Positions 1,150 through 63,660 are shown, counted from the first letter of the stretch. The stretch is 64,000 nt of DNA from Rhodobiaceae bacterium (GCA_965224185.1 OZ245042.1:804134-868133), one strand, 5' to 3'. Numbers and translations are program-made. Notes: a model not told the origin generated them from the letters alone.

Positions 1150-1224
1150 TGGCTGGGGCGGCAGGATTCGAACCTGCGAATGGCGGCACCAAAAGCCGCT
1201 GCCTTACCACTTGGCCACGCCCCA
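1150..1224 (-). tRNA. tRNA-Gln (anticodon UUG)
   Basis: The reverse complement reads TGGGGCGTGGCCAAGTGGTAAGGCAGCGGCTTTTGGTGCCGCCATTCGCAGGTTCGAATCCTGCCGCCCCAGCCA. It folds as a cloverleaf with a 7-bp acceptor stem, a GTTCGAATC T-loop, an anticodon stem GCGGC/GCCGC and a loop TTTTGGT (anticodon TTG), and ends in CCA. Confidence 0.8.
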
Positions 1225-1416
1225 AGATCAGCGGTCGGAGACCGGTCGCGGCGCTTCCTATAGCGCCTTCGGCGATGGTCGGCAAGCGCCGGCTCGACCT
1301 TGCCGGATCACCGCCGGAGAAAAACGGCCGCAAGCGGCGGCCGGTCGGGCGCCGGGCGGCACGATTCTGCCTTGCAGGGCCGCAAGGGTGGCGGTATAAA
1401 CCGCCGGCAATCACGG

Positions 1417-1493
1417 CGGAGTGTAGCGCAGCCTGGTAGCGCACCTCGTTCGGGACGAGGGGGTCGCAGGTTCAAATCCTGCCACTCCGACCA
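1417..1493 (+). tRNA. tRNA-Pro (anticodon CGG)
   Basis: CGGAGTGTAGCGCAGCCTGGTAGCGCACCTCGTTCGGGACGAGGGGGTCGCAGGTTCAAATCCTGCCACTCCGACCA. The acceptor stem CGGAGTG/CACTCCG and the anticodon stem CCTCG/CGAGG with loop TTCGGGA (anticodon CGG) are present, and it ends in CCA. The overall pattern matches bacterial tRNA-Pro. Confidence 0.8.
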
Positions 1494-1601
1494 GAATTGC
1501 CCGTTATCCCTCAATAGCTTATACCCTTCATCCGATGCCGGCGGCGGCTGGCGATGCGCCGGTTGCCGGGCATCCCAGCACAGCCGCGAGTGGGCATCGG
1601 A

Positions 1602-2063
1602 TCACTGACCGGCCGTCTTTCGGCCGAGTTCGTTGGGCTTGAAATCGTAGAACACGAAATCGTTGCGGCTGATGCCGCCGCGCTGTTTCTTGGCTTCGCC
1701 CATCTGGCCGATCCCTTTCTGCGCCCGTTTCTGGGCGCCGCGCAGAGCTTTTTTCTGCTCCTGGGTCGGATCGTCGATGGCGTAAATCCGCGGTTCCCGC
1801 TCGTCCTTGTGCAACACCGTGAGATAGACCGTCTTGCCGATTTCCACATGATGGACGTAGCGGAACTTTTCCTGCAGCCGGTCAAGCATGCCGGTTGGAT
1901 ATCCAAGGACGTCGTTCAGGCCGAACCAGGTGGTCAGAGCCAGGGTCAGCGCGGCCGGGATCACCGCGAACAGCCAGCGGCGCTCGCGCTGCCAGACCCG
2001 GATTGCCAGGATCAGGGCGAAGATGGTGAACAGCACACCGGCTATCGTGTAGATGGCAATCAT
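1602..2063 (-). CDS. Small membrane-anchored protein (N-terminal TM helix), third gene of the MotA/ExbB-like operon
   Basis: 153-aa ORF with an N-terminal hydrophobic helix (IAIYTIAGVLFTIFALILAI) and a charged C-terminal part. Its start overlaps the stop of the upstream gene by 4 nt, indicating translational coupling. Confidence 0.55.
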   Translation of the reverse strand: MIAIYTIAGVLFTIFALILAIRVWQRERRWLFAVIPAALTLALTTWFGLNDVLGYPTGMLDRLQEKFRYVHHVEIGKTVYLTVLHKDEREPRIYAIDDPTQEQKKALRGAQKRAQKGIGQMGEAKKQRGGISRNDFVFYDFKPNELGRKTAGQ

Positions 2064-2671
2064 TGTCCGTTGTTCCCATTGGTGTTCGGCGGTTGGTTTT
2101 GAGCGATCATGATTTCCGATTCATCCAAGTCGACCACATCGCCTCCCTCATCGATGGTGAAGGCGAGAAACGTGCGCTCCTGGCCGGCCTCGCTCAACGG
2201 TATGGTCTTGTCGTAGACGACCTTGAACGGATTGAGCTTCATCATCTGCACATTGACGTCGGTCAGGGCGCTGTCGCGCTTGGAATACATATGCAGATTG
2301 AACACGTATTCGCCCTTCTGCCAGCCGCGGAAGGTGGTGACTTCCTTGTTGATGTAGACGGTCTTTGAAGACCCGTCGGGCAGTTTGATCGTGTCGGAAA
2401 TGGCGCCCGTATCATCGCGATCCAGATGATAGATCTCGACCTCCCGATTGCGGAACGACAACAGCCGTCCCGACGGTGTGCGCAGCCAGGAATCCACGTC
2501 GTCCCGGCTCTTGGCGTCCCATTCCACGACGATCAGAAATTCCGCCTTGCGCTCCACTTCCGCCTTCTTCGCCACCGGGTTCATGTGCAAAAGCACCAGG
2601 AAGAACAGGACGACGAAGGTCATCAGGACGATCCACAGAAAGTCCAGATAGGACGTGAAGAGCCGGCTCAT
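2060..2671 (-). CDS. Single-pass membrane protein with an about 170-aa extracytoplasmic domain (no recognisable OmpA/MotB or ExbD motif)
   Basis: 203-aa ORF with an N-terminal TM (FLWIVLMTFVVLFFLVLL). It overlaps the neighbouring genes by 4 nt on both sides, giving operon structure with the MotA/ExbB-like gene. Confidence 0.55.
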   Translation of the reverse strand: MSRLFTSYLDFLWIVLMTFVVLFFLVLLHMNPVAKKAEVERKAEFLIVVEWDAKSRDDVDSWLRTPSGRLLSFRNREVEIYHLDRDDTGAISDTIKLPDGSSKTVYINKEVTTFRGWQKGEYVFNLHMYSKRDSALTDVNVQMMKLNPFKVVYDKTIPLSEAGQERTFLAFTIDEGGDVVDLDESEIMIAQNQPPNTNGNNGQ

Positions 2672-3099
2672 TTGAGGATCCGCCCCTGGACGGTCAGGAA
2701 CATGGAGCAGACCAGGCCGACGGCGGTGGTCGAGAGCGCGGTGCCCATGCCGGTCGCCAGGATCAAGACCAGCTTCTTGGTCTCCGACGGACTGGTGATG
2801 TCGACGCCGTTGGTGGCGACGGAGCCTAGGAGATAGACGAAGCCGATCAGCGTGCCAAGCATGCCCAGTTGCTGCATCAGGCCGGCAATGAACTCGATCA
2901 GGTCATGACGAACCGTTGCCGTGCGGAAATAGAGCTTGCCCTGATGCAGCGTGGTCAGAAAGTAGAGCGCGATGATGCCGAAGGAGATGAAGGTGATATC
3001 GGCCTGGTAGAGGTGGTAATGCAGGTCGAAATAGGCGGCGACCGCGAAGGCGAGAATGGTGATCCACGTCCACAGCCACCAATAGAGTTGTTTGGTCAT
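2668..3099 (-). CDS. MotA/TolQ/ExbB-family proton-channel-like protein (short, 143 aa)
   Basis: Three predicted TM helices. The C-terminal segment GMLGTLIGFVYLLGSVATNG...LVLILATGMGTALSTTAVGLVCSMFL resembles the conserved MotA_ExbB channel motif. Confidence 0.6.
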   Translation of the reverse strand: MTKQLYWWLWTWITILAFAVAAYFDLHYHLYQADITFISFGIIALYFLTTLHQGKLYFRTATVRHDLIEFIAGLMQQLGMLGTLIGFVYLLGSVATNGVDITSPSETKKLVLILATGMGTALSTTAVGLVCSMFLTVQGRILK

Positions 3100-3291
3100 T
3101 TTGTCCTCATGAACGATACCGGCGGTCGTTGCGCCGGGATTGTTGGGGCAAGGCGTGCTGACGGCGATCGGACTGGTCCGGATGAACCCGCTTTCCGTCC
3201 GCAGCGGCCGCGTGTCGATGCGCGATCATCGATCAGGCCGCGCGTCCGCGGGGCGGGCGAGATGCCGTGTGCACGCATTGCGCGTTGGAAA

Positions 3292-3807
3292 TCAGGAGAT
3301 AATGCCGGGCGCCGGAACGATCAGGCAGTTGCGCACATGCCAGGTGCCGTCCGCGGCCTTTTTGACCAGCAATGCCGCCCACCAAAGCCGCCCCTTGCGG
3401 TCGGTGATGTAGGCATATTGGATTGGCTCTTGCGGGTTCTTGACGCTCAGGCCGTCCATGCGCATGTCCTTGGCGATGGTGAACGGTCCCTGCAGCACGG
3501 AATAGACTTTGAGCATGTGCCCGGCATCCTGGAATTTCGACCGGATCTCCGGTGCCGCGAGGCGATAGAGGATGTCGGCATTGCGGGACGACATGGCCGC
3601 GACATGGGCCCGCGTGATGAACGAGATTTCTCGCCGGTCGGCCTCATTGAGCGGACGAACCGGTTGAGCCTCCTGCTGCTGCGGCACTGCCGCGCGATGG
3701 GGCGGAAACGCCTGTGCCGCGGTTACGCATGCGAGCCCGACCGCCGCTGCTATCGTCGTGATTTTGATGGAAGAAAGAATCGACTGGTACATCATGCACC
3801 TCCTCAT
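3292..3807 (-). CDS. Secreted hypothetical protein (signal peptide)
   Basis: The ORF carries a signal-peptide-like N-terminus (MRRCMMYQSILSSIKITTIAAAVGLACVTAAQA). No family assignment from sequence alone. Confidence 0.5.
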   Translation of the reverse strand: MRRCMMYQSILSSIKITTIAAAVGLACVTAAQAFPPHRAAVPQQQEAQPVRPLNEADRREISFITRAHVAAMSSRNADILYRLAAPEIRSKFQDAGHMLKVYSVLQGPFTIAKDMRMDGLSVKNPQEPIQYAYITDRKGRLWWAALLVKKAADGTWHVRNCLIVPAPGIIS

Positions 3808-4571
3808 GCCAGTCGAGGCCATTGATGTATCGATAGCGAGGGTGCGTGCGGTGTAGTCCCGGCATCAATCCAATGCGATCGAATTCGCACGTTACCGATG
3901 GTATTCCAAGATGGCCTCAGATCCCGGACACCGGTAGAACGTCGTATCTCGAACTCGAACTAAAGGTTTCCCGGGGTTTTCCGGAGCTGATTGCCACACC
4001 TAGCCCGGCGGTCACCGTGGAAAAACTATCATTGGAAAGCCGCGACTACTAATACCCTCGCCAAATCGCCGCTTACAAAGTTATATGTAAGTAAAAACCG
4101 AATTGCAATTCAATTTCGCGGATTAATTCGTTTTGTACGCAAAATGACGCATGGAACCTTTCGAATACAATGTAATTTCTTCTTAAGGTAATGGGAGTTG
4201 TGTTTTGTTCAATCTTTAATACGAAATTTACGTTGCGCCTTGTCCACAATACACTTACGGATGCCAGATAATACTATTGTAGAAATTTACAGTATCCAAT
4301 TGTAGTGGTGGCATTTTCCAGGCGTTTGTAAGTGAACCTGATTCGGCCCGGTCGGGACCGTGAATCGCTGTATCGGCAGCCCGGGATCGGCAGTGCGGCA
4401 AGGTCGATTGACAACGCCGCCGCCAAGCCCTTGGATATGGATCGGCCGGGAAACGGCTTGATGTGACGAAACAGGGTCCGGCGAATTGGGGGAAGTTAGG
4501 GTGGCGCCATTGTCGGTTGATGGCCCGGTTCAGACCGGTCGCGAGGCGCTCCGGCGCTGTCGTCAGCGCGG

Positions 4572-5881: not shown

Positions 5882-6409
5882 ATGCCTGGAAAATCGGTCG
5901 CGCTGAGTGTTCGCCTGTCGCAGGAGGAAGCCTCGTTTCTTGCCACCTGGAATCCGTCCGGCGTCACGTCACTTAGCGAGAAAGTGCGCATGATCATCAA
6001 GGAGGCCGCCCAACGGCAATCGGGAACGGCGGGGTATTCGGAGCTTCTAAGCTTCTGGGAAAACACGCTTTCCGGGCCGATGCACCAGTTGCGCGAGGCG
6101 GAAGCGGAAAACGATGTTCATTCCGAATTGATGACCCAGTTCGGGCATTGGCTGCCGGATGCGGCCGCCCTGTTGATGGCGCGCATTCCCCAGCCGGACA
6201 GCGACGAGGCGACCGAAGACCTGAAGGCGTTGGAGGCGGTCATCGTCGACCGCATCCTATCGCTCATGGATCAGGTCCTGCGCATGGGCATTACCCGCGA
6301 GGGACCCTGTTATGATCCCGGTGTCGTCAACCGCAAGGCGCGGCGGGTTGCGGACGTGGCATCATTGTTGAAACGCTCATACGAAGAAGAAGGAGAGAAA
6401 CATGGCTGA
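5882..6409 (+). CDS. Putative ribbon-helix-helix (CopG/Arc-like) N-terminal domain protein, translationally coupled to pspA
   Basis: The N-terminus KSVALSVRLSQEEASFLAT...SLSEKVRMIIKEAAQ has a beta-strand plus two-helix pattern typical of RHH DNA-binding proteins. An AT-rich promoter-like region lies upstream (5700-5880). Its stop overlaps the pspA start (6402-6409). Confidence 0.45.
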   Translation: MPGKSVALSVRLSQEEASFLATWNPSGVTSLSEKVRMIIKEAAQRQSGTAGYSELLSFWENTLSGPMHQLREAEAENDVHSELMTQFGHWLPDAAALLMARIPQPDSDEATEDLKALEAVIVDRILSLMDQVLRMGITREGPCYDPGVVNRKARRVADVASLLKRSYEEEGEKHG

Positions 6410-7082
6410 GACACTTGCCTCCCGGGTCGGACGCCTGATCAGCGGTACCGCCAACAGTCTGGTCGATGCAATTGAGAATGCGGCGCCGGAAATCGTGATG
6501 GAACAGGCACTGCGCGAGATCGATCAGGCGATCGACGACGTGCGGGCCGAATTGGGCACCGTCGTTGCGCGAAATCACATGGCGACACGCCGGCTGGTGG
6601 ACGAAAACCGCAAGCATGGCGACCTGACCGAAAAGACCAAACTGGCGCTCTATGAAGGCCGGGAGGACCTGGCCAAGACCGCCGTGTCCCAAATCCTGGA
6701 TATCGAAGGCCAGATCCCGATCCTGGAAGCGACGATTTCGGAGACCAAGGATGAGGAAGCCAAGCTTGAAAGCTATATCGTGGCGCTTCAGGGCCGGCGG
6801 CGGGAAATGAAGGACGAGCTTGGCGCCTTTCGTGCCGCGCAAACCGCATCCGCGCGCTCCGAGAGCGCGGGGAGCGCGACGCCAGCGGCCTCGGGCGGCG
6901 TGGCCGGCACGGTGCGCGACGCGGAACGGGCTTTCGAACGGGCCATGGAGGGCGGTGGCGGCATCGCCGGAACGCCCCTGCCCGATCCGGACACCGCCGC
7001 CAAGCAGGCGGAGCTTGATGATCTCGCCCATCAAAAGAAAATCACCGATCGGCTGGCGGCCATACGAAAGGAGATCGACTGA
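6402..7082 (+). CDS. pspA: PspA/IM30 (phage-shock protein A, ESCRT-III-like) family protein
   Basis: Heptad-rich coiled coil. Segments such as KLALYEGREDLAKTAVSQILDIEGQI...EEAKLESYIVALQGRRREMKDEL align with the PspA consensus (ALLKEREDLARAAL...). Length 226 aa. Confidence 0.7.
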   Translation: MAETLASRVGRLISGTANSLVDAIENAAPEIVMEQALREIDQAIDDVRAELGTVVARNHMATRRLVDENRKHGDLTEKTKLALYEGREDLAKTAVSQILDIEGQIPILEATISETKDEEAKLESYIVALQGRRREMKDELGAFRAAQTASARSESAGSATPAASGGVAGTVRDAERAFERAMEGGGGIAGTPLPDPDTAAKQAELDDLAHQKKITDRLAAIRKEID

Positions 7083-7084
7083 CT

Positions 7085-7855
7085 GTGATTGATTTTATCC
7101 TCGCACCGGAAAATCTGCCCTTTGCCGTGGCGCTCGGGCTGATGCTGGCCATCGCCGTCCTGGAAGGCGCGATGACCCTGGTCGGGGCCGGCCTGTCGGA
7201 GGCCATCGACAACATGCTGCCCGGCGCGCCGGACTTGGATGCCGATTTAGATATCGCCGACGGGCCGGAATTCGACGCCGATCTTGATATCGGTGACGGC
7301 CCGTCCGCCGGTGATTTGGCGGACGCCGACGGTCCTGATGCCGGCGGCGTGGAGGCGCAAGACGGCGGGCTTACCCCGCTAACCAAGGTGCTCGGCTGGT
7401 TGCAGATCGGTAAGGTGCCGTTCTTGGTTCTCCTGGTCTGCTTCCTGGCCGTGTTCGGTCTGGCCGGGTTCATCATCCAGAACCTGGTGCAGATGGTAAC
7501 CGGCGGATTGCTGCCGTCGGTGCTGGCGGCAATCCCGGCGCTCGCGGTGGCCATTCCATCGATCCGCGTCATCGGCGGCGGGCTGGCGAAGCTGATCCCC
7601 AAGGACGAAACCTCGGCGGTTGCCAGCGGCAGTTTCATCGGGCGGATCGCGACGATCACGATCGGCACGGCAAAAACCGGGCAACCTGCGGAGGCCCGGC
7701 TGACCGACCAACACGGCCAGGTCCACTACGTGATGGTGGTGCCGGACAAGGCGGAAGACAGCCTGGAGACCGGCTCGGCAGTGCTGCTTGTCTCAAAGGA
7801 CGGGCCGAATTTCCGGGCGATCGCGAACACCAATCCGCATCTGGTCGACGACTGA
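7085..7855 (+). CDS. YqiJ-like inner-membrane protein with a C-terminal NfeD-type OB-fold (flotillin partner)
   Basis: Acidic D-rich repeats (DLDADLDIADGPEFDADLDIGDGP), two TM helices, and a C-terminal beta-rich segment (GSFIGRIATITIGTAKTGQPAEARL...GSAVLLVSKDGPNFRAI) are typical of the NfeD/YqiJ (DUF1449) family. The gene lies directly upstream of a flotillin, as yqiJK does in E. coli. Confidence 0.6.
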   Translation: MIDFILAPENLPFAVALGLMLAIAVLEGAMTLVGAGLSEAIDNMLPGAPDLDADLDIADGPEFDADLDIGDGPSAGDLADADGPDAGGVEAQDGGLTPLTKVLGWLQIGKVPFLVLLVCFLAVFGLAGFIIQNLVQMVTGGLLPSVLAAIPALAVAIPSIRVIGGGLAKLIPKDETSAVASGSFIGRIATITIGTAKTGQPAEARLTDQHGQVHYVMVVPDKAEDSLETGSAVLLVSKDGPNFRAIANTNPHLVDD

Positions 7856-7955
7856 CTTGATCCGTGGGACCACCGGGGACCCGGGCAATGATCCGACCCC
7901 GCGCCGGTAACGGGCAAACACTGTTGATATCAACAATAATTAGAGGAGAAAAACC

Positions 7956-16582: not shown

Positions 16583-18105
16583 GTCCCCTGTGAAGAATTC
16601 CCATGCTGCTGCCTGGATTGGTGTTTTTCACCGGTTGCAGTATTCGGTTTTGCAAGGATTGTTGGTTTTGACGGTCGGTTTCTTGCGTTTTTGGGTTCGT
16701 TTTTGTGAGCGAATATGATTCCCTGGTCGTTGTGATTTTGGGGGATTTCGATGCGCCCGAAGAAGCCGAAGACAACCGACCACGGCGACCTTTTCAAAGC
16801 CCGTCTCGATCAGATCATCAACATGAAGCACGAACTGGTTCTGCTGGCTGACCGGGTCGATTGGGACTGGATCGACGAAGAACTGGCGCCGTTTTTCTCC
16901 GACTGGGGCCGGCCGGGGGAACCGGTCCGGTTCATGATCGGCATGTTCCTGTTGAAGGCCACCTACGGCTTGTCGGATGAACAAGTCTGGGAACGCTGGG
17001 TGCACGATCCGTATTTTCAGTACTTTACCGGCGAGGCATTCTTCCAGCATGAACTCAGGCACGAGCGCTCAGGCATGAGCCATTGGCGCAAGCGCATCGG
17101 TGACAAGCTGGATATTCTGCTCGCCGAGACGTTGCGCATTGCCCACGATGTCGGCGCTCTGAAGAAGAGCGACCTGGCGCGGGTGACCGTTGACACCACC
17201 GTGCAGCCGAAGGCAATCACCTTCCCGACCGACGCCAAGCTCATGCTGGTGGCGATCGAGCAGTTGAACCGGCTTGCCAAGGCGCATGGGGTCGAGGTGC
17301 GCCAGTCCTATCTTCGGGTCGCCAAAAAGGCCGCAATCATGGCCGGACGCTATGCCCATGCCAAGCAGTTCAAGCGCCACAACCGGCAGCTCAAGTTCCT
17401 GCGCACCCGGCTCGGGCGGCTGATCCGCGATATCCGTCGCAAAACCGAAGCGCACGAGGATCTGAGAGCCGTCTTCGCCTTGCCGCTGTCAAAGGCCGAC
17501 CAGATCCGAGGACAGAAGCAGCGCCAGCGGGGCTGGAAGCTCTATTCATGGCATGCGCCGGAGACCGAGTGCATCGGCAAAGGCAAGGCGCACAAGCCGT
17601 ACGAATTTGGCTGCAAGGTCTCAATCACCACCACCAACAAGCGCTGCAAGGGCGGCCAGTTCATCCTTCATGCCAAGGCGTTCCATGGAAACCCATATGA
17701 CGGCCATACCTTGGGGAATGTGATCGAGGAAACGGAGTTGCTGACCGGCAGGGAAATCGAACGGGTCTACGTCGATAAAGGGTATCGAGGCCACGACGCA
17801 CCGCATCCGCGCCGGGTCTTCAGATCCGGACAAAAACGCGGCGTCCATGGCCAGATCAAACGCGAACTCAGACGGCGATCCGCTGTCGAGGCCGTCATTG
17901 GCCATTGCAAGACCGACGGCCATCTGGGACGAAACTACTTGCATGGCCGTCTCGGGGATCGCATCAATGCCACAATGAGCGCCGTCGGATACAACATCCG
18001 ACGCATCCTCAGGTGGTTGAGGATACTCTTAAGCAAAACCCTCAAAACAATCCTGGGAGCAATCGCCGGTCAATCAGCCCTCAAAGCCGCTTCTTAACAT
18101 TCGAC
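16583..18105 (+). mobile_element. IS5/IS1182-family insertion sequence with TATA(TA) target duplication and imperfect terminal inverted repeats
   Basis: Relative to copy 1, the flanks read cttatata|IS|...ctatata accggg. The ends gtcccctgtgaagaa and (reverse complement) gtcgaatgttaagaa form an imperfect IR. It encodes a 448-aa DDE transposase. Confidence 0.75.
16751..18097 (+). CDS. IS5-family DDE transposase
   Basis: N-terminal InsH-like domain (LVLLADRVDWDWIDEELAPFFSDWGRPGEPVRFMIGMFLLKATYGLSDEQVWERWVHDPYFQYFTGE) and a C-terminal DDE region (VYVDKGYRGHD...). Confidence 0.85.
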   Translation: MRPKKPKTTDHGDLFKARLDQIINMKHELVLLADRVDWDWIDEELAPFFSDWGRPGEPVRFMIGMFLLKATYGLSDEQVWERWVHDPYFQYFTGEAFFQHELRHERSGMSHWRKRIGDKLDILLAETLRIAHDVGALKKSDLARVTVDTTVQPKAITFPTDAKLMLVAIEQLNRLAKAHGVEVRQSYLRVAKKAAIMAGRYAHAKQFKRHNRQLKFLRTRLGRLIRDIRRKTEAHEDLRAVFALPLSKADQIRGQKQRQRGWKLYSWHAPETECIGKGKAHKPYEFGCKVSITTTNKRCKGGQFILHAKAFHGNPYDGHTLGNVIEETELLTGREIERVYVDKGYRGHDAPHPRRVFRSGQKRGVHGQIKRELRRRSAVEAVIGHCKTDGHLGRNYLHGRLGDRINATMSAVGYNIRRILRWLRILLSKTLKTILGAIAGQSALKAAS

Positions 18106-18437
18106 TATATAACCGGGATGATCCTGCATCCCGCCTCTCCGCTCCGCCGGCATTTACATTTGACCGGCGCCGGCTATGGTAGCCGCCGGACCGGCAGCCG
18201 TCGGTCCTCGGGGTCTGATAGCCCCACCAACAGCGTTTGGCATCAGACGCATTGATGCCTCCTCGCACCTTTCGGTCGGGGAGGCAATGGCGTATGTCCA
18301 GGGCCCCGGCCTAAAGGTCATTGCGGCCGACTGTTGGCGGTCTATCAGCTCCCCGGCTACCAGGGTTAAGCCCTGGTGGCCGTTTTCTTTTCCGGCCACG
18401 GGAGCGCGCCATGGAGACCGCCGATTTCTAGACATCA

Positions 18438-18770
18438 TTGTTCAACGCCTATCTCGCCTCGCCGGACTGGATCAAGGGGCTTGCCGTCATTCTCGCCTTC
18501 GCCGCGCCGTCGGCGGTGCTGATGGGTCTCGCCTGGCTCGCCTTCGGCCAAAGGCGCGGCGACAAAACGGCCGGAGACCGCTTAACCGACCCGCCCGATC
18601 CGGCCTGCCCCCTGGTCTATTCCGTCCAACGCGCTCCGGACGGCACCCTGCGCCGGTTCATGCATCCAGGCAATGGCAGCCCGGTGGAACTCCCGGCTGC
18701 GGAAGGCGTTGCTGCACTGGAACGGCCGGCGGACGGAGGGCGGCGCGGCGTGGCGGATGCGGCTGGGTAG
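18438..18770 (+). CDS. Copy-2 paralog of the small single-TM protein (possible TTG start; the upstream ATG frame has acquired a stop)
   Basis: MFNAYLASPDWIKGLAVILAFAAPSAVLMGLAWLAFGQRRGD... aligns with the 10667-10981 product. The METADF* frame is stopped by tag at the position corresponding to copy 1's tgg. Confidence 0.4.
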   Translation: MFNAYLASPDWIKGLAVILAFAAPSAVLMGLAWLAFGQRRGDKTAGDRLTDPPDPACPLVYSVQRAPDGTLRRFMHPGNGSPVELPAAEGVAALERPADGGRRGVADAAG

Positions 18771-25691: not shown

Positions 25692-25775
25692 GTCATTCCC
25701 GCGAAAGCGGGAATCCAGGGCCAATTGGCACCGAGTTGCTTCGTCGCCCTGGATTCCCGCTTTCGCGGGAATGAC
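25692..25775. repeat. REP family 1 doublet between the permease genes
   Basis: gtcattcccgcgaaagcgggaatccagggcc...gccctggattcccgctttcgcgggaatgac. Confidence 0.8.
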
Positions 25776-25828
25776 AGTAAATATCTTAGACGGCCTTCCG
25801 TGTATTTTCGGCCAGTGGCGGGTCGGCC

Positions 25829-28991: not shown

Positions 28992-30080
28992 TCAAGGCCG
29001 ATCCAGCAAGATCGCCGCTTCCGCCGTCCAGCTGATCATTTCCCGCTCGCCTGCCCCATAGACCCGGTCCGATAATTTCCGGTGCTGCTCGACCTTGACG
29101 TAGTGGCCGTCGGCCACCTCAAACACATCCGTTTCCAGCGTGCCCAGGAATTCGGTCGTGATGTAGGCGCCCTCGATCTGGTTGGCCATGTCCGGGTGGC
29201 GGCCGGTATGCATTAAATCGGCGCGGACGGAGAAGTAGACGTCTTCATGCAAGCGCACCCGGGCGATATCCGCCGGTTTGCGGACATAGAACAGGCCTTC
29301 TTCGGATTCCACGAAGACGATGGAGCCGGATTGGGACTTGATGCGGCCCTTGAAGAGGTTGTTGTTGCCGATGAATTCGGCGACGAATTTGGTGCGCGGA
29401 TTTTCGTGGATCTCGCGGCTCGGGCCGATCTGCTGGACCAGGGCGTCGCTCATGACCACCACCATATCGGCCATGGACATGGCCTCCTGCTGGGAATGGG
29501 TGACCATGATGAAGGTGATGCCGAGGTCGCGCTGGATCTTTTTCAGCTCCACCATCATGGTCTGGCGCAGGTTGAAGTCCAGCGCGCCGAGCGGCTCGTC
29601 CAAGAGCAGCAGCGTCGGCTTGGAGATCAGGGCGCGGGCGAGCGCCACACGCTGCTGCTGGCCGCCCGACAGATCGTGGGGCCGGCGGTCGGCAAGTTCG
29701 GTCAATCCCACCATCTCGATCATCTCGGCCACCTGGCGGTCGCGAATCGCCTTGTCGATGCCCTTCATTTTCAGGCTGAATTCCACATTCTGGGTGACCG
29801 TGCGGTGGGGGAAGAGGGCGAAGCTCTGGAACATCATCGCCGTGTCGCGCTGGGACGGCGGCAGGTCGGTGACGTCGTTGCCCTTGATGTAGATCTTGCC
29901 CTCGGTGACCTCCTCCAGGCCGCCGATCATGCGCAAGGTGGTGGTCTTGCCACAACCGGACGGCCCGAGCATGGCGACGAAATCGCCGTGCTTGATCTCG
30001 GCATTGAAATCAATCACCGCCCGGACGCCGCCGGGAAAGGTCTTGTTGACGTTTTCCAGGACCACATCATAGTCGTCCAT
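28992..30080 (-). CDS. ABC transporter ATP-binding protein (PotA-like importer ATPase)
   Basis: Walker A GPSGCGKTT, signature LSGGQQQRVALARAL, Walker B LLLLDEP, and a C-terminal TOBE-like extension. Confidence 0.85.
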   Translation of the reverse strand: MDDYDVVLENVNKTFPGGVRAVIDFNAEIKHGDFVAMLGPSGCGKTTTLRMIGGLEEVTEGKIYIKGNDVTDLPPSQRDTAMMFQSFALFPHRTVTQNVEFSLKMKGIDKAIRDRQVAEMIEMVGLTELADRRPHDLSGGQQQRVALARALISKPTLLLLDEPLGALDFNLRQTMMVELKKIQRDLGITFIMVTHSQQEAMSMADMVVVMSDALVQQIGPSREIHENPRTKFVAEFIGNNNLFKGRIKSQSGSIVFVESEEGLFYVRKPADIARVRLHEDVYFSVRADLMHTGRHPDMANQIEGAYITTEFLGTLETDVFEVADGHYVKVEQHRKLSDRVYGAGEREMISWTAEAAILLDRP

Positions 30081-30179
30081 GGGCGGGGTCCATGGTAGGG
30101 TCGAGGCTCGAATTCAGCCGATGGAATGTGGCGCATCCCCCCCTCCCTAACCCTCCCCCTCCAGGGGGGAGGGAATTGT

Positions 30180-30335
30180 GGGGCGATGGCCCTCCCTCAC
30201 CCGCCAGGTGGGAATAATGGGGCGATGGCCCTCCCTCACCCGCCAGGTGGGAATAACGGGGTGATGGCCCTCCCTCACCCGCCAGGTGGGAATAACGGGG
30301 TGATGGCGCTCCCCCACCCGCCAGGTGGGAATCTT
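30180..30335. repeat. Tandem repeat, 4 x 39 bp (ggggcgatggccctccctcacccgccaggtgggaataay)
   Basis: Four head-to-tail copies, the last degenerate. Flanked by the G/C palindromes ccctccccctccaggggggaggg (30150-30173) and cctcccccctggagggggagg (30361-30384). Confidence 0.8.
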
Positions 30336-30510
30336 GCAGCCAGCGGCGACAATTCTTTTCGCCTCCCCCCTGGAGGGGGAGGCCGGCGCGTAGCGACGGG
30401 AGGGGGGGATCGGCGGTTGCGCCCGTCTCCGTGTATTGGTCGCGAACTAAGGTCAGCGTCAAATGGGCGGTCGCCACGCGCGCTTCGGACAAGATCGCCT
30501 CAACCCCTCC

Positions 30511-30595
30511 GTCATTCCCGCGAAAGCGGGAATCCGGGGTTCCAGGCGACGACCTATCGTTCGCGGCCCTGGATTCCCGCTTTCGCGGGAATGAC
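30511..30595. repeat. REP family 1 doublet
   Basis: gtcattcccgcgaaagcgggaatccggggtt...gccctggattcccgctttcgcgggaatgac. Confidence 0.8.
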
Positions 30596-30635
30596 TGGCG
30601 CGTGATGGTGCGGTCCTTGTCGACCACGACGCGTC

Positions 30636-33365
30636 CTAATCCGCCGCCTTGGCCGTCGCCTGCAAGAGCGACCAGACCTTGTCGAACTCGACCGCGTCGA
30701 ACACGCCGCCTTCATTGGCGTCGCGCAGTAAGGCGAGCGCTGATTCCTGGGTCTCGTTGCCCTTGGCGGCATCCTCCAGAAGGCCAACCGCCTCGCCGAA
30801 GGGGATTTCGCGGGCCTTTTTGGAGCCCATCTGCTGGCGTACCAGGGCGGCCAGCGTATCGGCCATCTGCTTGAATTCGCCGGAGCGATAGGGCCGGCCG
30901 AAAATGCCGCGAATGCCGTTCTTGGCGAAGCGTTCGCGCAGGCCCGCCGGCAGCGATTGGGCGACACCTTCCAGGATCTCGCCCATGGCGAAGCCGGAGG
31001 TGAACATGCCGCGAATGGTGTCGACCGTGCCGTCGCCGCCGCCATACATGCGGATCTGGGCCTCCGACAGGGCGTGGCCCATGGCCTTGGCCTGGTCGAT
31101 ATGGACGTCGCGCTCGGCCTCGATCTGCATCTTGGCGAGTTCCAGGAAGGTGGCCGCTTCGTTGTATTTCTTCAGCGCCTCGGCCTTCGCCTCGATGCCC
31201 GATGCTTCGGCCTCCAGCATGCGCTGGGTGTTTTTCACGCGCAAAGATTCAATTTCCATTTCGGCGCGGCCGCGGGCGCCGGCCTCGCGTTCGATGCCCT
31301 CGGCGGAGATCTTCTGGGCCTCCGAATTGGCGCGGGCGCGGGTGAGCACGGCTTCCGATTCGTTCTCCGCCGATTCCTTGCGCGCTTCCGATTGCACGAC
31401 CAGGTGCAGACGGGCGATATCGGCCTGCGCCTGTTCGTTGATGCGGGCGGCGTCGGCGGCCTCTTCCGCGCCGATGCGGGCGACTTCCTTCTGCTGCTCG
31501 GCCTCCGAGATCGGCACCACGGAAACCACGTCCTGTTCCGCCTTGGCCATTTGCCGGCTGGCCTTCAGGCGATCGGCTTCGGCCTCCTCCAGTTCCTTGG
31601 TCTTTTGCGCATAGGCGATTTCGCGGTCGCGTTCCTCCGCCTCGCGGGAGCGGAAGCGGATAATATCGGCCTTTTCGCGCTCCTGCTCTTTGGCAATGAT
31701 GGCGATTTCGCGGTCGCGCTCTTCCAGTTCGACGACCGTATCGCGCTTGATCTCGGCCTGGCGCACCGCCTCGTCTTTTTCGGCCAGCGCGATCCGGCGG
31801 TCGCGTTCCTCCTGCTCGCGGGCGAGTTGGCGTTTGATCTCGGCGGCCTCGCGCAGACGCATGGTGTTGGCGACTTCGGCATCCTTCTGGATGCGGCTTT
31901 TTTCCAGTTCCAGTTCCTTTTGAATTTCCTCGTTCTGGATTTCCAGGCGCCGCTCCAGGATGATCTTCTGGCGCTCGCTTAAGACAATGGCTTTTTCGTC
32001 GGACACTTCCTTGTCGTGGCGGACCACGGCGAAGGCCTCGTCCTTTTCGATATTCAGCATGGCGAGTTTGGTTTCCAACGCCCGTTTGCGCACGGCGACG
32101 GCTGCTTTTTCGGCGGCCTCATGGCGCAGGTCTCGGGCCTCCTCCTCGGCCGCGGCGACTTCGGTTTCGCGGGCGATCTCGGCGCGGCGGCGATCGCGTT
32201 CGGCGGCGGCAAGTTCAGCCTCGCGCTGCTTATCGGCCTGTTCCACCGCGAGGCGCTTATTCGTTTCGGCGAGCGCTTCCTGCTTGGATTTCTCGATGAG
32301 CTCGATTTCCTTGTCTTTTTCGGCCTTTTCGAGCGCCAGCCGGCGTTGCACTTCGGCCAGTTCCTCTTCGCGGGCCTTGCCGATCAGTGCGATCTCCTTG
32401 TCGCGGCGCTCCTGTTCAAGTGCCAGTTCCCGCTGGATGTCGGTGGATTCGCGCTTTTTTGCTTCCTCGGTGATGGCCACCTCGCGCTCGGTGCGCATGC
32501 GCTCCAATTCGACCTCGTTGGCAAGTTCCTTTTCTTCCACATCCTTGCGCTGGTCGAGCATGTATTTCTGTTTCTCGCCCAATTGGCGGGCCTGTTCGTT
32601 GGAGATCTCCTTGTCCTGAGTCACCCGGGCGACCGCCTCGGTGCGCTCGATGTCCAACATTTCCAGTTCGGTATCCAGATCCTTCTGGCGGATGGCGACG
32701 GCGGTGCGTTTTTCGGTATCGTGCACCTTCTTGCGGGCATCCGACGTGATCTCGGTGATGATCTTCAGGCCCTCGGCGTCGAACACGTTGTCGGTGCGGA
32801 AGAATTCCTTGGCGGTCTGTTCCAGGGTGACGATGGTCGCCTCTTCCAGTTCCAGGCCGTTGGCCTTGAAACTGTCCTTGACGGTCTCCTTGATCTGCCC
32901 GGCGAAGGCGTCGCGGTTTTCGTGCAGTTCCTTCAGCGTCTTGGTGGCGGCATAGGAGCGGATGGCGCTGACCACCTTGGCTTCCAGGAGGTTGCGGACC
33001 TTTTCCGCGTCGAACGTCTTTTCGCCGAGACTGCGGCTTGCCGTTAACAGATCGTCCTCGGTGCGACCCACATGGGTGTAGAGTTCGGTGACCACATCGA
33101 CGCGGATATTGTCGGCGGTCAGCACCGCCTGGTCGCGGGTGCGGCCGACGATCAGCTTGATCGATTCCAAAGAAATCCAGGAGACCTCGTGGAAGACCGG
33201 CAACACGATCGCGCCGCGTCCGAGACAGACCTTGGTGCCCCGCCAGCCGGTGCGGATGAAGCCCATATTGGCCGGCGCCCTTTTGTAAATCCATATGGAA
33301 ATGATGTAGAGGATCGCGATGATGACGATCGCGGTGATGATCAATCCGATCCAAACTTCAAGCAT
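30636..33365 (-). CDS. Giant flotillin-like SPFH protein (about 910 aa) with expanded coiled-coil repeats
   Basis: MLEVWIGLIITAIVIIAILYI TM, then an SPFH core (ANMGFIRTGWRGTKVCLGRGAIVLPVFHEVSWISLESIKL) paralogous to the 7956 gene. This is followed by about 550 aa of E/R/K/A heptad repeats and a unique C-terminal domain. The start is uncertain: the ORF runs to 33428 (GTG), but the ATG at 33365 sits just before the TM as in the paralog. Confidence 0.75.
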   Translation of the reverse strand: MLEVWIGLIITAIVIIAILYIISIWIYKRAPANMGFIRTGWRGTKVCLGRGAIVLPVFHEVSWISLESIKLIVGRTRDQAVLTADNIRVDVVTELYTHVGRTEDDLLTASRSLGEKTFDAEKVRNLLEAKVVSAIRSYAATKTLKELHENRDAFAGQIKETVKDSFKANGLELEEATIVTLEQTAKEFFRTDNVFDAEGLKIITEITSDARKKVHDTEKRTAVAIRQKDLDTELEMLDIERTEAVARVTQDKEISNEQARQLGEKQKYMLDQRKDVEEKELANEVELERMRTEREVAITEEAKKRESTDIQRELALEQERRDKEIALIGKAREEELAEVQRRLALEKAEKDKEIELIEKSKQEALAETNKRLAVEQADKQREAELAAAERDRRRAEIARETEVAAAEEEARDLRHEAAEKAAVAVRKRALETKLAMLNIEKDEAFAVVRHDKEVSDEKAIVLSERQKIILERRLEIQNEEIQKELELEKSRIQKDAEVANTMRLREAAEIKRQLAREQEERDRRIALAEKDEAVRQAEIKRDTVVELEERDREIAIIAKEQEREKADIIRFRSREAEERDREIAYAQKTKELEEAEADRLKASRQMAKAEQDVVSVVPISEAEQQKEVARIGAEEAADAARINEQAQADIARLHLVVQSEARKESAENESEAVLTRARANSEAQKISAEGIEREAGARGRAEMEIESLRVKNTQRMLEAEASGIEAKAEALKKYNEAATFLELAKMQIEAERDVHIDQAKAMGHALSEAQIRMYGGGDGTVDTIRGMFTSGFAMGEILEGVAQSLPAGLRERFAKNGIRGIFGRPYRSGEFKQMADTLAALVRQQMGSKKAREIPFGEAVGLLEDAAKGNETQESALALLRDANEGGVFDAVEFDKVWSLLQATAKAAD

Positions 33366-33460
33366 GATTTTTGTTCCATCCTCTAACGCATCTGCCATTG
33401 AGCAGTATCTAAAATCTTCCCGGTGCACCGGCGCAAGGCCGGGTCAAAAGCATTGTCCGA

Positions 33461-35785: not shown

Positions 35786-35837
35786 GGTTCGATCCGCTGC
35801 TTACGTCCAGTTTGGCCAGTAGAAACCAACACATGCT

Positions 35838-35976
35838 CCGTCATCCCGTGCGCGCTGCAGCATGCAATGCTGCTGTGCAGACACGGGATCTCGACCTCGG
35901 TTAACCCGTGTGTAACCGTGAGATCCCGTGTCTGCAGCGCATCACTTCGTGCTGCGCGGCGCACGGGATGACGCGG
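35838..35976. repeat. REP family 2 element (nested palindromes gcgtcatcccgtgcgc ... gcgcacgggatgacgc)
   Basis: Outer inverted repeat plus inner tgcagacacgggatctc/gagatcccgtgtctgca. Related copies at 41217 and 56041. Confidence 0.75.
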
Positions 35977-41216: not shown

Positions 41217-41275
41217 GTGCGTCATCCCGTGCGCTGCGCATCACTGTGTGCTGCGCAGCGCACGGGATGACGCGG
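41217..41275. repeat. REP family 2 element (short form)
   Basis: tgcgtcatcccgtgcgctgcgcatcactgtgtgctgcgcagcgcacgggatgacgcgg. Confidence 0.75.
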
Positions 41276-55989: not shown

Positions 55990-56040
55990 TGCTGGGATTT
56001 GTCCTATGACTGTGATCGATGAGCGTGTATCACATCACTC

Positions 56041-56177
56041 TGCGTCATCCCGTGCGCATTGCAGCATGGAATGCTGCTATGCAGATACGGGATCTCTTAA
56101 AGACCTTAGGCCGCATTCGACAGATCCCCTGTCTGCGGCGCATCACTGCGTGCTGCGCAGCGCACGGGATGACGCGG
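56041..56177. repeat. REP family 2 element
   Basis: tgcgtcatcccgtgcgc...tgcagatacgggatctc...gatcccctgtctgc...gcgcacgggatgacgcgg. Confidence 0.75.
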
Positions 56178-63403: not shown

Positions 63404-63487
63404 GTCATTCCCGCGAAAGCGGGAATCCAGGGTTGTTGACGAATGCTTCGGTTTTAGGCCCTGGATTCCCGCTTTCGCGGGAATGAC
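63404..63487. repeat. REP family 1 doublet
   Basis: gtcattcccgcgaaagcgggaatccagggtt...ggccctggattcccgctttcgcgggaatgac. Confidence 0.8.
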
Positions 63488-63660
63488 TGTCTCATATGTC
63501 ATACCAAATCCGTTTTGACGCAACGCGCAATAGGTCACGCCGGGCGATTGCACGACCCCCTATTTATGGGCTGGCAATTATCAACACGGTTGGCATTATT
63601 TTCCTGCAGTTCCCATATTGGTTGAGAATTCGGCGTATCTTGCTACGCTCCTCACCAAAA

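What the first reader, a model, noticed from the sequence alone, without database searches (positions are those of the whole stretch)
1150..3099. MotA/ExbB-like proton-channel homolog in a tightly coupled three-gene membrane operon beside a divergent tRNA-Gln/tRNA-Pro pair
- The channel is a 143-aa MotA/TolQ/ExbB-family protein, much shorter than canonical MotA, TolQ or ExbB.
- It is translationally coupled (4-nt overlaps) to two single-TM proteins that lack MotB/OmpA, ExbD/TolR or TolA signatures.
- The operon sits next to two tRNA genes, a classic integration hotspot.
- It may be a minimal ion-driven stator for an unknown envelope function; the partner proteins are unassigned.
Basis: partly seen in the sequence, partly recalled or inferred. 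Interest (0 to 1): 0.55.

Follow-up and report, generated by a model that had tools for sequence, protein, structure and literature searches.

The report
Phage-type three-gene proton motor module
The three overlapping membrane genes are real and belong to an undescribed, strictly conserved three-gene relative of the flagellar-stator / Tol / Ton proton motors, found mostly in bacteriophage genomes and, in some phages, fused to a cell-wall-cutting lysozyme.

Summary
Three minus-strand genes, A 3099-2668 (143 aa), B 2671-2060 (203 aa) and C 2063-1602 (153 aa), overlap by ATGA beside tRNA-Pro(CGG) and tRNA-Gln(UUG).

- **A** is a minimal MotA/TolQ/ExbB-type channel. It scores just above the Pfam threshold and keeps the two channel threonines.
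- **C** has two membrane helices, a small periplasmic domain, a variable flexible linker and a conserved C-terminal motif.

A-B-C is a self-contained module, adjacent in about 121-126 of 128 fetched loci. Its main reservoir looks viral: 264 IMG/VR contigs, plus 29 GenBank phage records that all infect Rhizobium or Sinorhizobium, including phage 16-3, which integrates at tRNA-Pro(CGG). It also occurs in Alphaproteobacteria and candidate-phyla-radiation (CPR) genomes.

In 12 viral loci C is fused to a phage lysozyme, which points to the cell wall as the target.

The window's copy is viral-type but long resident: its codon use matches the host, it is present in an 88%-identical relative, and dN/dS is 0.03-0.07.

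No Pfam, PHROG, PADLOC entry or paper describes the module. The function is unproven.

The parts
2668..3099 (-). Gene A, 143 aa. A minimal MotA/TolQ/ExbB-type channel subunit with four hydrophobic helices: about 5-24 (Trp-rich), 33-51, 67-96 and 108-137. The cytoplasmic loop is only about 14 residues and there is no cytoplasmic tail.
   Evidence: Pfam MotA_ExbB scores 24.5 bits against a gathering score of 22.9. There are weak ZorA N-terminal hits. The family profile A4 matches solved MotA (E 1.4e-4), TolQ (9e-4), PomA, ExbB and ZorA over the last two helices. Hydropathy and loop charges are. dN/dS is 0.029.
2851..2853 (-). Codon of A Thr83, in the invariant G79-x2-G82-T83-x2-G86 motif of helix 3.
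   Evidence: It is invariant in 42 family members. It aligns with the GLFGTVWG motif of solved TolQ chains. From my own knowledge, that position corresponds to the channel-lining Thr145 of E. coli TolQ.
2725..2727 (-). Codon of A Thr125, in the invariant A121 / T125 / G128 motif of helix 4.
   Evidence: It is invariant in family alignment A4. It aligns with the ALIATAIGL motif of solved TolQ chains. From my own knowledge, that position corresponds to TolQ Thr178.
2060..2671 (-). Gene B, 203 aa. The MotB/ExbD/TolR-equivalent subunit. It has a short cytoplasmic N-terminus, one membrane helix (residues 2-30), a linker of about 14 residues, and a TerD-like beta-sandwich (45-183) with an invariant acidic cluster (D58, D60, D86, D87, D93, E110).
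2642..2644 (-). Codon of B Asp10, near the cytoplasmic end of the membrane helix. This is the putative proton-binding aspartate.
   Evidence: It is invariant in 69 of 69 family members, within the motif FxDxLFNxLL.
1602..2063 (-). Gene C, 153 aa. It has two membrane helices (1-19, 31-49) joined by a basic cytoplasmic loop (RVWQRERRW). A G(W/Y)PT motif follows, then a small periplasmic beta/alpha domain, a basic flexible linker and a C-terminal FVFYDFKPNELGRK motif (family consensus FYxLPPxxLPxK).
   Evidence: Family alignment A3 has 63 members. C lies directly downstream of B in 124 of 128 loci. In 12 viral loci the whole C module is followed by a Pfam Phage_lysozyme domain, E 6e-50. There is no Pfam, PDB or PHROG match. 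The AlphaFold2 model is poor, pLDDT 48. dN/dS is 0.073.
2668..2671 (-). ATGA overlap where the stop codon of A overlaps the start codon of B.
   Evidence: Read directly from the sequence. Overlaps of -4 or -1 nt are the commonest junction type across the family.
2060..2063 (-). ATGA overlap where the stop codon of B overlaps the start codon of C.
   Evidence: Read directly from the sequence.
3104..3108 (-). GAGGA ribosome-binding-site-like motif, 4 nt upstream of the ATG of A.
   Evidence: Read directly from the sequence.
1417..1493 (+). tRNA-Pro(CGG). This is context, not part of the module. Its 3' end lies 108 nt from the stop of gene C.
   Evidence: ARAGORN and Rfam at 66.5 bits. tRNA-Pro(CGG) is the attachment site of phage 16-3 (PMC5537653), which carries an A/B/C module. 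No second copy of the tRNA 3' end exists in the window.
1150..1224 (-). tRNA-Gln(UUG). This is context. Synteny with the related contig L129 ends exactly at its outer end.
   Evidence: ARAGORN. The blastn alignment of L129 ends at window position 1149.

Best explanation
The operon encodes a self-contained, ion-driven motor of the MotAB / ExbBD / TolQR / ZorAB superfamily. It belongs to a distinct three-gene family, A-B-C, that has not been described.

Shown here:
- A is a minimal MotA/TolQ/ExbB-type subunit that keeps the two channel threonines (T83, T125).
- B is the partner subunit, with an invariant membrane-helix aspartate (D10). It carries a TerD-like, probably Ca2+-binding, beta-sandwich on a linker of only about 14 residues.
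- C is a two-helix membrane protein whose periplasmic part ends in a flexible linker and a conserved terminal motif.
- The three genes always travel together.
- The family is abundant on phage contigs and in cultured rhizobiophages.
- In some phages C is fused to a periplasmic lysozyme.

Inferred:
- A and B assemble like their relatives, as five A around two B.
- Proton flow through the Thr/Asp pathway turns A relative to B.
- A has almost no cytoplasmic domain, so the work must be delivered on the periplasmic side, through B's membrane-proximal domain and the reaching arm of C. C would play the role TonB or TolA play for ExbBD or TolQR.
- The target is at the peptidoglycan layer. In phages this would control or position a cell-wall hydrolase, for lysis or wall remodelling.

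The window's copy is of the viral type but has been domesticated. It is long resident beside tRNA-Pro(CGG) and kept by selection for a host function that is still unknown.
For: Subunit A:
- Pfam MotA_ExbB is above threshold.
- The family profile matches solved MotA, TolQ, PomA, ExbB and ZorA over the last two helices.
- GxxGTxxG and AxxxTxxG align with the TolQ motifs.

Subunit B:
- Asp10 is invariant in 69 of 69 members, in an ExbD/MotB-like helix motif.
- A few members give weak ExbD or MotB_plug hits.

Module:
- A lies directly upstream of B in 121 loci and C directly downstream in 124, out of 128. Junctions are mostly -4 or -1 nt, and no fourth gene is conserved.

Phage reservoir:
- 264 confirmed relatives occur on IMG/VR contigs of up to 527 kb.
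- Neighbours include terminase, ClpP and ribosomal protein S21 (Pfam or BLAST), and ORFs that look like RNR and PhoH by my reading of their sequences only.
- 29 GenBank phage records carry it, all Rhizobium or Sinorhizobium phages.
- RHph_I1_18 has the same 147/198/146-aa overlapping trio.
- Phage 16-3 proteins p038, p040 and p042 are A, B and C.
- For each of A, B and C the best single-sequence phmmer E-values are on viral contigs, and the concatenated tree places the window among viral contigs only.

Cell-wall link:
- C is fused to Phage_lysozyme in 12 loci.
- Peptidase_M15_3 abuts A in L066 and L070. Separate GH24 lysozymes lie within about 2 kb in L047, L064 and L122.

Functional in this host:
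- dN/dS is 0.03-0.07, GC3 is host-like, and the locus is conserved in relative L129.

Precedent:
- Asp-bearing 'transpore helices' attached to non-canonical periplasmic domains (vWA) have been described, PMC12204202.
Against: - Assembly, stoichiometry, ion flow and rotation are all inferred by homology. No multimer model could be run.
- The A match to known families is weak: 24.5 bits, with PDB profile E-values of 1e-4 to 1e-2.
- The TerD relation rests on predicted structure only. There is no Pfam TerD hit and 10-13% identity. Ca2+ binding is untested.
- The lysozyme fusions come from what looks like one viral lineage, so they count as roughly one evolutionary event.
- Most viral neighbourhoods are heterogeneous and are not lysis cassettes.
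- The window's own C has no hydrolase domain and a short linker.
- The module also occurs in CPR bacteria, which lack an outer membrane, and is stably inherited next to ORFs I read as otsA/otsB-like (not checked against a profile library) in Geminicoccaceae-type genomes. It is therefore not exclusively a phage function.
- The structure of C could not be predicted (pLDDT 48).
- The NJ tree distances are all large (0.68 against 0.72), so the viral placement is only moderately supported.
Confidence: 0.55

Rival explanations
1. It is a phage-derived exclusion or defence device. The A-B channel, with C as a sensor of envelope damage, would detect an incoming phage, as Zorya's ZorAB does. It would then block entry or dissipate membrane potential, causing abortive infection. 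Phages and prophage remnants would carry it to exclude competitors, and the bacterium would keep it as immunity.
For: - The best profile hits of A in NCBIfam and PADLOC are to ZorA N-terminal regions.
- The module is carried by lytic and temperate phages.
- In 16-3 it lies downstream of the immX immunity genes, among genes mostly annotated only by number.
- The window copy is of the viral type and is kept by selection in a bacterial chromosome.
- From my own knowledge, small membrane modules on phages often act in superinfection exclusion.
Against: - The ZorA scores are far below the family cut-offs: 21.5 bits against 700.
- There is no ZorA tail, no ZorC, ZorD or ZorE-type effector, and no PADLOC hit for B or C.
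- Stable vertical inheritance in free-living Alphaproteobacteria and CPR next to housekeeping genes is unusual for defence islands.
- No defence genes were seen beside it in the window.
- The lysozyme fusions are not explained by this reading.
Confidence: 0.2
2. It is a host-type envelope energiser, a third Tol/Ton-like system. It would use the proton motive force for a housekeeping envelope task such as wall or outer-membrane maintenance, division or uptake. Phages would copy it as an auxiliary gene to keep the infected cell working.
For: - It has a three-component architecture of channel, Asp-helix subunit and reaching membrane protein, like TolQRA and ExbBD-TonB.
- It is syntenic and vertically inherited in several alphaproteobacterial lineages, and is present in CPR.
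- It is under strong purifying selection here.
- Marine viral contigs that carry it also carry classic auxiliary genes such as S21, PDF, SufB-like and GDP-mannose dehydratase.
Against: - No TolB, Pal, TonB-box receptor or other envelope partner is conserved nearby.
- C has two helices and none of the Pfam TonB or TolA domains.
- The window's version groups with the minimal viral forms, not with the longer cellular A subunits.
- The pattern scan returned no relative above 44% identity among 185,579 species representatives, so the window's own species either is not represented or its representative lacks the gene. The module is therefore not a core gene there.
Confidence: 0.2
3. It is a passive, gated ion leak that does not rotate. 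In effect it would be a holin or pinholin-like depolarising channel used to time lysis, with B and C only as a plug or regulator.
For: - From my own knowledge, unplugged MotAB-type channels leak protons and arrest growth.
- The module is associated with endolysin domains in some phages.
- A is very small and lacks any cytoplasmic domain.
Against: - The module is maintained in non-viral genomes under purifying selection, where a lysis trigger would be harmful.
- Conservation of the full Thr/Thr/Asp set and of an elaborate B domain and C arm is more than a leak needs.
Confidence: 0.05

Closest known systems
TolQ-TolR-TolA and ExbB-ExbD-TonB (proton-driven envelope energisers)
   Same: - A channel subunit with the conserved GxxGT and AxxxT helices.
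- A partner with a single helix carrying the essential Asp.
- A third inner-membrane protein that reaches into the periplasm.
- The genes are adjacent and translationally coupled, and the output is on the periplasmic side.
   Different: - A probably has four helices and a cytoplasmic loop of about 14 residues, instead of three helices and a large cytoplasmic domain.
- B carries a TerD-like beta-sandwich instead of the ExbD/TolR fold.
- C has two helices and no TonB_C or TolA domain.
- There are no TolB, Pal or TonB-dependent receptor genes.
- The family is largely phage-borne.
Flagellar stator MotAB / PomAB
   Same: - The four-helix topology of A.
- The best solved-structure match is MotA 8gqy, E 1.4e-4.
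- The Asp sits at the cytoplasmic end of the B helix.
   Different: - A has no cytoplasmic torque-generating domain.
- B has no OmpA-like peptidoglycan-binding domain and no long plug-linker.
- No flagellar genes are nearby in the stretch annotated (window 1-21442).
Zorya ZorAB (anti-phage motor)
   Same: - A is a distant MotA-like homologue, and its top hits in NCBIfam and PADLOC are ZorA N-terminal regions.
- Both have a link to phage biology.
   Different: - There is no ZorA tail (143 aa against 400-700 aa).
- There is no ZorB peptidoglycan-binding domain.
- There are no ZorC, ZorD or ZorE effectors.
- Scores are far below the curated cut-offs.
TolQ-like motors paired with 'transpore-helix' vWA proteins (PMC12204202)
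   Same: The principle is the same: an Asp-bearing helix that inserts into a TolQ-like pentamer is attached to a non-canonical periplasmic domain.
   Different: Here the attached domain is TerD-like rather than vWA. There is a dedicated third subunit C, and the family is phage-associated.
TerD-family Ca2+-binding beta-sandwich proteins (2qz7, 2kxt)
   Different: - Sequence identity is only 10-13%, with no Pfam TerD hit.
- From my own knowledge, TerD proteins are soluble and cytoplasmic. This domain is membrane-anchored and predicted to be periplasmic.
Membrane-tethered (SAR-type) phage endolysins
   Same: In 12 viral loci C-lysozyme is a muramidase held at the inner membrane by N-terminal helices. 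From my own knowledge, this resembles signal-anchor-release endolysins, whose activity depends on membrane energisation.
   Different: - The anchor is a conserved two-helix subunit of a motor module, not a weakly hydrophobic releasable helix.
- The window's C has no lysozyme domain.

Membership tests
MotA/TolQ/ExbB superfamily (Pfam PF01618) | Profile score above the curated threshold | tested here: met
   24.5 bits against a gathering score of 22.9, E 2.4e-5, residues 66-141. The margin is narrow.
MotA/TolQ/ExbB superfamily (Pfam PF01618) | Conserved channel-lining Thr in each of the last two helices | tested here: met
   T83 and T125 are invariant in 42 members. They align with the GLFGTVWG and ALIATAIGL motifs of solved TolQ chains.
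MotA/TolQ/ExbB superfamily (Pfam PF01618) | An adjacent gene for a single-helix partner with a conserved Asp near the cytoplasmic end of the helix | tested here: met
   B Asp10 is invariant in 69 of 69 members. B lies directly downstream of A in 121 loci.
MotA/TolQ/ExbB superfamily (Pfam PF01618) | Pentamer-dimer (5:2) assembly and ion-driven rotation | not testable with these tools
   No multimer prediction tool was available. Structure prediction handles single chains only.
Flagellar stator MotAB/PomAB | An OmpA-like peptidoglycan-binding domain and a plug-linker in B | tested here: not met
   There is no OmpA or MotB hit for the window protein. The fold is TerD-like. One of 69 members gives a weak MotB_plug hit, E 0.02. 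The linker is only about 14 residues.
Flagellar stator MotAB/PomAB | A large cytoplasmic domain in A that contacts the rotor | tested here: not met
   The cytoplasmic loop is about 14 residues and the C-terminal tail about 6 residues.
ExbBD-TonB / TolQRA | An ExbD/TolR periplasmic domain (PF02472) in B | tested here: not met
   The window protein gives no hit. Three of 69 members give weak hits, best E 0.005. The model shows a different fold.
ExbBD-TonB / TolQRA | A TonB/TolA-type third protein (single helix plus a TonB_C or TolA domain) | tested here: not met
   C has two predicted helices and no Pfam, NCBIfam or PDB match. Only the overall layout of anchor, linker and terminal motif is similar.
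ExbBD-TonB / TolQRA | Genomic context with tolB/pal or TonB-dependent receptors | tested here: not met
   No such neighbour was seen in the annotated part of the window or among conserved neighbours in 128 loci.
Zorya (ZorAB plus effectors) | A ZorA with a long C-terminal tail, scoring above the family cut-off | tested here: not met
   ZorA2 scores 21.5 bits against a cut-off of 700. A is 143 aa.
Zorya (ZorAB plus effectors) | Presence of ZorB and of ZorC/D or ZorE | tested here: not met
   PADLOC gives no hit for B, C or the upstream gene.
TerD family (Pfam PF02342) | TerD beta-sandwich fold | tested here: met
TerD family (Pfam PF02342) | Sequence-profile membership | tested here: not met
   TerD is absent from the 25 most-matched of 32 Pfam families at E<=0.1 across 69 members, the last of which matched a single member, so at most one member could match. 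There is also no TerD chain in the PDB profile search at E<=10.
TerD family (Pfam PF02342) | Ca2+ binding | not testable with these tools
   Only an invariant acidic cluster is seen: D58, D60, D86, D87, D93 and E110.
Phage lysis cassette / tethered endolysin | A peptidoglycan hydrolase domain in or next to the module | tested here: not met
   The window's C has no hydrolase domain, and the flanking genes I scanned (DUF4864 and the LuxR-type regulator) are not hydrolases. The feature is met only in relatives: 12 C-lysozyme fusions, and M15 or GH24 genes nearby in 7 more loci, L047, L060, L064, L066, L068, L070 and L122.
Recently integrated genomic island at a tRNA | An integrase, a direct repeat of the tRNA 3' end, atypical composition, and strain variability | tested here: not met
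   There is no repeat of the tRNA-Pro 3' end in 64 kb. No integrase was seen in the flanks. GC3 is 0.79-0.85 against a window mean of 0.76. The locus is present at the same site in an 88%-identical relative. Wider strain sampling was not possible.

The most novel reading that the evidence does not exclude
Tailed phages widely encode their own proton-driven rotary motor, whose periplasmic arm (C) positions or gates a tethered peptidoglycan hydrolase. This would be a new, motor-based way to time lysis or cut the cell wall. Bacteria, including this one, would have domesticated copies of it for envelope work or for excluding phages. It would be the first 5:2-type motor family whose main home is viral genomes.
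Probability: 0.2. Interest if true: 0.85.

Novelty: new variant of a known kind. Interest (0 to 1): 0.68.

Why it matters
Only a handful of functional classes of these pentamer-dimer ion motors are known: flagellar, Ton, Tol, gliding/T9SS, Zorya and SiiAB. Each new class has revealed a new way that cells use the proton gradient outside the cytoplasm.

This module would add several things:
- A compact, experimentally tractable member, with a 143-aa channel and three genes in 1.5 kb.
- A new kind of axle domain (TerD-like) and a new output subunit.
- The first family that is mainly phage-encoded.

It is present in cultivable systems: Rhizobium phages RHph_I1_18 and P10VF, and the classical temperate phage 16-3. 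The question of what phages do with a proton motor, and whether it controls a cell-wall hydrolase, can therefore be tested directly.

It would also give a provisional family assignment to roughly 1,500 cluster representatives at 50% identity that currently have no Pfam or PHROG family.

Tried and rejected
- **Word-index protein searches.** They found almost nothing beyond the window's own proteins. The exhaustive HMMER search was needed.
- **Alignment A1 for locus finding.** It was too diverse. The reduced A2 worked.
- **Structure of C.** A 3-sequence alignment gave an unusable model, pLDDT 48, so no fold search was run on C.
- **AFDB fold search.** The library was unavailable. The BFVD search gave no informative hit.
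- **A fourth conserved gene.** I looked for one upstream of A, since signal-peptide proteins precede A in the window, L047 and L128. They are unrelated, so the DUF4864 gene is not part of the module.
- **Prophage remnant or island at tRNA-Pro.** There is no att repeat, no compositional anomaly and no decay. I rejected this as a recent event. An ancient phage origin remains plausible.
- **The 346-aa A-B fusion in L129.** It is explained by one extra G in a G-run on a 2x-coverage contig, so I did not treat it as biology.
- **Organism identification from plasmid searches.** This gave only a Rhizobiaceae-leaning hint.
- **Literature searches.** None found a description of this module.
- **PHROGs and PADLOC.** Neither has a family for B or C.
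Full report
**1. The observation**

- A at 3099..2668 (143 aa)
- B at 2671..2060 (203 aa)
- C at 2063..1602 (153 aa)

Both junctions are ATGA overlaps, and a GAGGA precedes the first ATG. tRNA-Gln(UUG) at 1150-1224 (-) and tRNA-Pro(CGG) at 1417-1493 (+) lie just beyond the end of C.

The genes are real. Against an 88%-identical relative (locus L129), dN/dS is 0.029, 0.064 and 0.073 at dS about 0.33.

**2. What each protein is**

*Protein A.* It passes Pfam MotA_ExbB narrowly, 24.5 bits against 22.9. It gives weak hits to ZorA N-termini. A profile of 42 family members matches solved MotA (E 1.4e-4), TolQ, PomA, ExbB and ZorA over the last two helices. Its invariant G79-G82-T83-G86 and A121-T125-G128 motifs align with the GLFGTVWG and ALIATAIGL motifs of TolQ. 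A has four hydrophobic segments, a basic cytoplasmic loop of about 14 residues and no tail. That makes it much smaller than any characterised relative.

*Protein B.* It has no Pfam, NCBIfam, PADLOC or PHROG family. An exhaustive search nevertheless finds 1510 cluster representatives, the best at 44% identity. Asp10 in the single membrane helix is invariant in 69 of 69 sequences, within FxDxLFNxLL. This is the hallmark of MotB, ExbD and TolR. A few members even give weak ExbD or MotB_plug hits.

*Protein C.* It has two helices joined by a basic loop. After them come a G(W/Y)PT motif, a small domain, a Gly/Glu/Lys-rich linker of very variable length, and a conserved terminal FYxLPPxxLPxK motif. 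Nothing known matches it, and its model is unusable.

**3. The module and where it lives**

Using B as bait I fetched 46 loci from species-representative genomes and 80 of 264 confirmed loci from IMG/VR viral contigs. I added two annotated phage regions.

Clustering all ORFs gave these counts out of 128 loci:

| Gene | Loci | Position |
|---|---|---|
| B | 126 | bait |
| C | 124 | directly downstream of B |
| A | 121 | directly upstream of B |

Junctions are mostly -4 or -1 nt, and there is no conserved fourth gene.

The viral contigs look like genuine phages. They encode a terminase large subunit, ClpP, ribosomal protein S21, peptide deformylase and Hsp70, and reach 527 kb. ORFs that look like RNR and PhoH were recognised only from their sequences.

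Among 50,697 deposited phage records, only 29 have the module, and all infect Rhizobium or Sinorhizobium. RHph_I1_18 has the same overlapping trio of 147, 198 and 146 aa, annotated as hypothetical. In the temperate phage 16-3, p038, p040 and p042 are A, B and C.

Cellular copies occur in marine Alphaproteobacteria, Geminicoccaceae- and Rhodospirillaceae-type MAGs and two CPR genomes. In Geminicoccaceae they sit next to ORFs I read as otsA/otsB-like, not checked against a profile library. In CPR the neighbouring ORFs look like housekeeping genes, again by my reading.

**4. A functional clue**

Long C variants of about 300 aa, in 12 viral loci, are complete C proteins followed by a Pfam Phage_lysozyme domain, E 6e-50.

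Other cell-wall hydrolases lie close by in further lineages:
- Peptidase_M15_3 abuts A in L066 and L070.
- Separate GH24 lysozymes lie within about 2 kb in L047, L064 and L122.

This places the C-terminus of C in the periplasm and ties the module to peptidoglycan.

The caveats matter. The fusions look like one lineage. Most viral neighbourhoods are unrelated to lysis. The window's C carries no hydrolase.

**5. The window's own copy**

For each of A, B and C the best single-sequence phmmer E-values are on viral contigs; the best viral B match is 47% identical, against 44% or less in genomes. A concatenated neighbour-joining tree puts the window inside a clade of 32-41 viral contigs. All distances are large, so this is moderate evidence.

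It is not a recent insertion:
- GC3 is 0.79-0.85 against 0.76 +/- 0.055 for other genes in the window.
- There is no integrase and no repeat of the tRNA 3' end.
- The same order, tRNA-Gln, tRNA-Pro, C, B, A, DUF4864, is kept in a relative at 87.8% nucleotide identity.

The link to the tRNA is indirect. tRNA-Pro(CGG) is the attachment site of phage 16-3 (PMC5537653), which carries the module. An ancient phage origin followed by domestication is plausible but not shown.

**6. Mechanism**

Shown: the Thr/Thr/Asp set, the obligatory three-gene unit, the near-absence of a cytoplasmic part in A, the short B linker, and the reaching architecture and lysozyme fusions of C.

Inferred: a pentamer-dimer assembly, rotation driven by proton flow, and output on the periplasmic side through B's membrane-proximal sandwich and C's arm, aimed at the wall layer.

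The rival readings cannot be excluded. They are phage exclusion or defence, a housekeeping Tol/Ton-like energiser copied by phages, and a passive depolarising channel.

**7. Comparison and novelty**

The module works like TolQRA or ExbBD-TonB, but it fails their membership tests. It has no ExbD/TolR domain, no TonB/TolA domain and no matching genomic context. It also fails those of MotAB (no OmpA domain, no rotor interface) and Zorya (no tail, no effectors).

The nearest concept in the literature is the pairing of TolQ-like pentamers with Asp-bearing transpore helices attached to vWA domains (PMC12204202).

I found no paper, Pfam, PHROG or PADLOC entry for this module. I rate it a new variant of a known kind of machine, with above-average interest because of its phage reservoir and its tractable hosts.

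Noticed in passing
window 13027-13109, 16289-16371, 25695-25777, 30515-30597, 63407-63489: A family of about 83-nt intergenic palindromic elements. The arms read ATTCCCGCGAAAGCGGGAAT ... GGATTCCCGCTTTCGCGGGAATGAC. There are 5 full copies and further half copies, resembling REP/RIME-type repeats.
   Followed up: no
window 30151-30345: About five head-to-tail copies of a 39-nt unit (CCCTCCCTCACCCGCCAGGTGGGAATAACGGGGTGATGG). They lie just downstream of the 362-aa minus-strand ORF 28992-30080 and about 290 nt beyond the stop of the 930-aa flotillin-like gene at 30636-33428.
   Followed up: no
window 16751-18097; 9906-10961 versus 16347-18708: An IS5-family transposase, 483 bits. The roughly 1 kb around it is duplicated, at 81-99% identity, about 6.4-7.7 kb upstream. 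This suggests a second, partial IS copy or a rearrangement.
   Followed up: no
window 6402-9821: A membrane-stress cluster lies about 3.3 kb from the operon: a PspA-like gene (6402-7082), a YqiJ_N-type membrane protein (7085-7855) and a 621-aa flotillin (7956-9821). The PspA and part of the YqiJ gene are syntenic with the operon in relative L129. The flotillin is not.
   Followed up: partly
window 11772-12980: A GGDEF diguanylate cyclase gene with strikingly low GC (0.48, GC3 0.56) against a window mean GC3 of 0.76. It is probably foreign DNA.
   Followed up: no
window 1317-1395 (-), hairpin 1325-1343: Between the two tRNA genes, on the minus strand, there is a strong terminator-like hairpin (7 G-C pairs followed by TTTTT). 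There is also a sub-threshold Rfam match to the Hfq-regulated sRNA Hrs13, 25.6 bits against a gathering score of 52. It could be the operon's terminator or a small RNA.
   Followed up: no
L129 8964-10004 (ENA ERZ25072999 ctg298705): In the related contig, A and B are called as one 346-aa protein (P0156). The join comes from one extra G in a G-run near the 3' end of A, on a contig labelled 2x coverage. It is most likely an assembly error and not a natural A-B fusion.
   Followed up: partly
window 3823-4571: An AT-rich spacer (GC 0.51 overall, 0.44-0.48 in its core at about 3800-4400) separates the DUF4864 gene from the next gene, a 362-aa polytopic membrane protein with no family match. It holds two promoter-like sites on the plus strand, at 4144-4171 and 4243-4272.
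   Followed up: no
window 35836-35976, 41220-41275, 56040-56177: A second family of GC-rich palindromic repeats (…CATCCCGTGCGC…GCGCACGGGATG…), with 2-3 copies each.
   Followed up: no
L116 6477-7499; L095 5392-7281: Viral contigs that carry the module also encode unusual cargo directly upstream of A: a SbmA/BacA-like inner-membrane transporter (E 2e-78) and an Hsp70.
   Followed up: no
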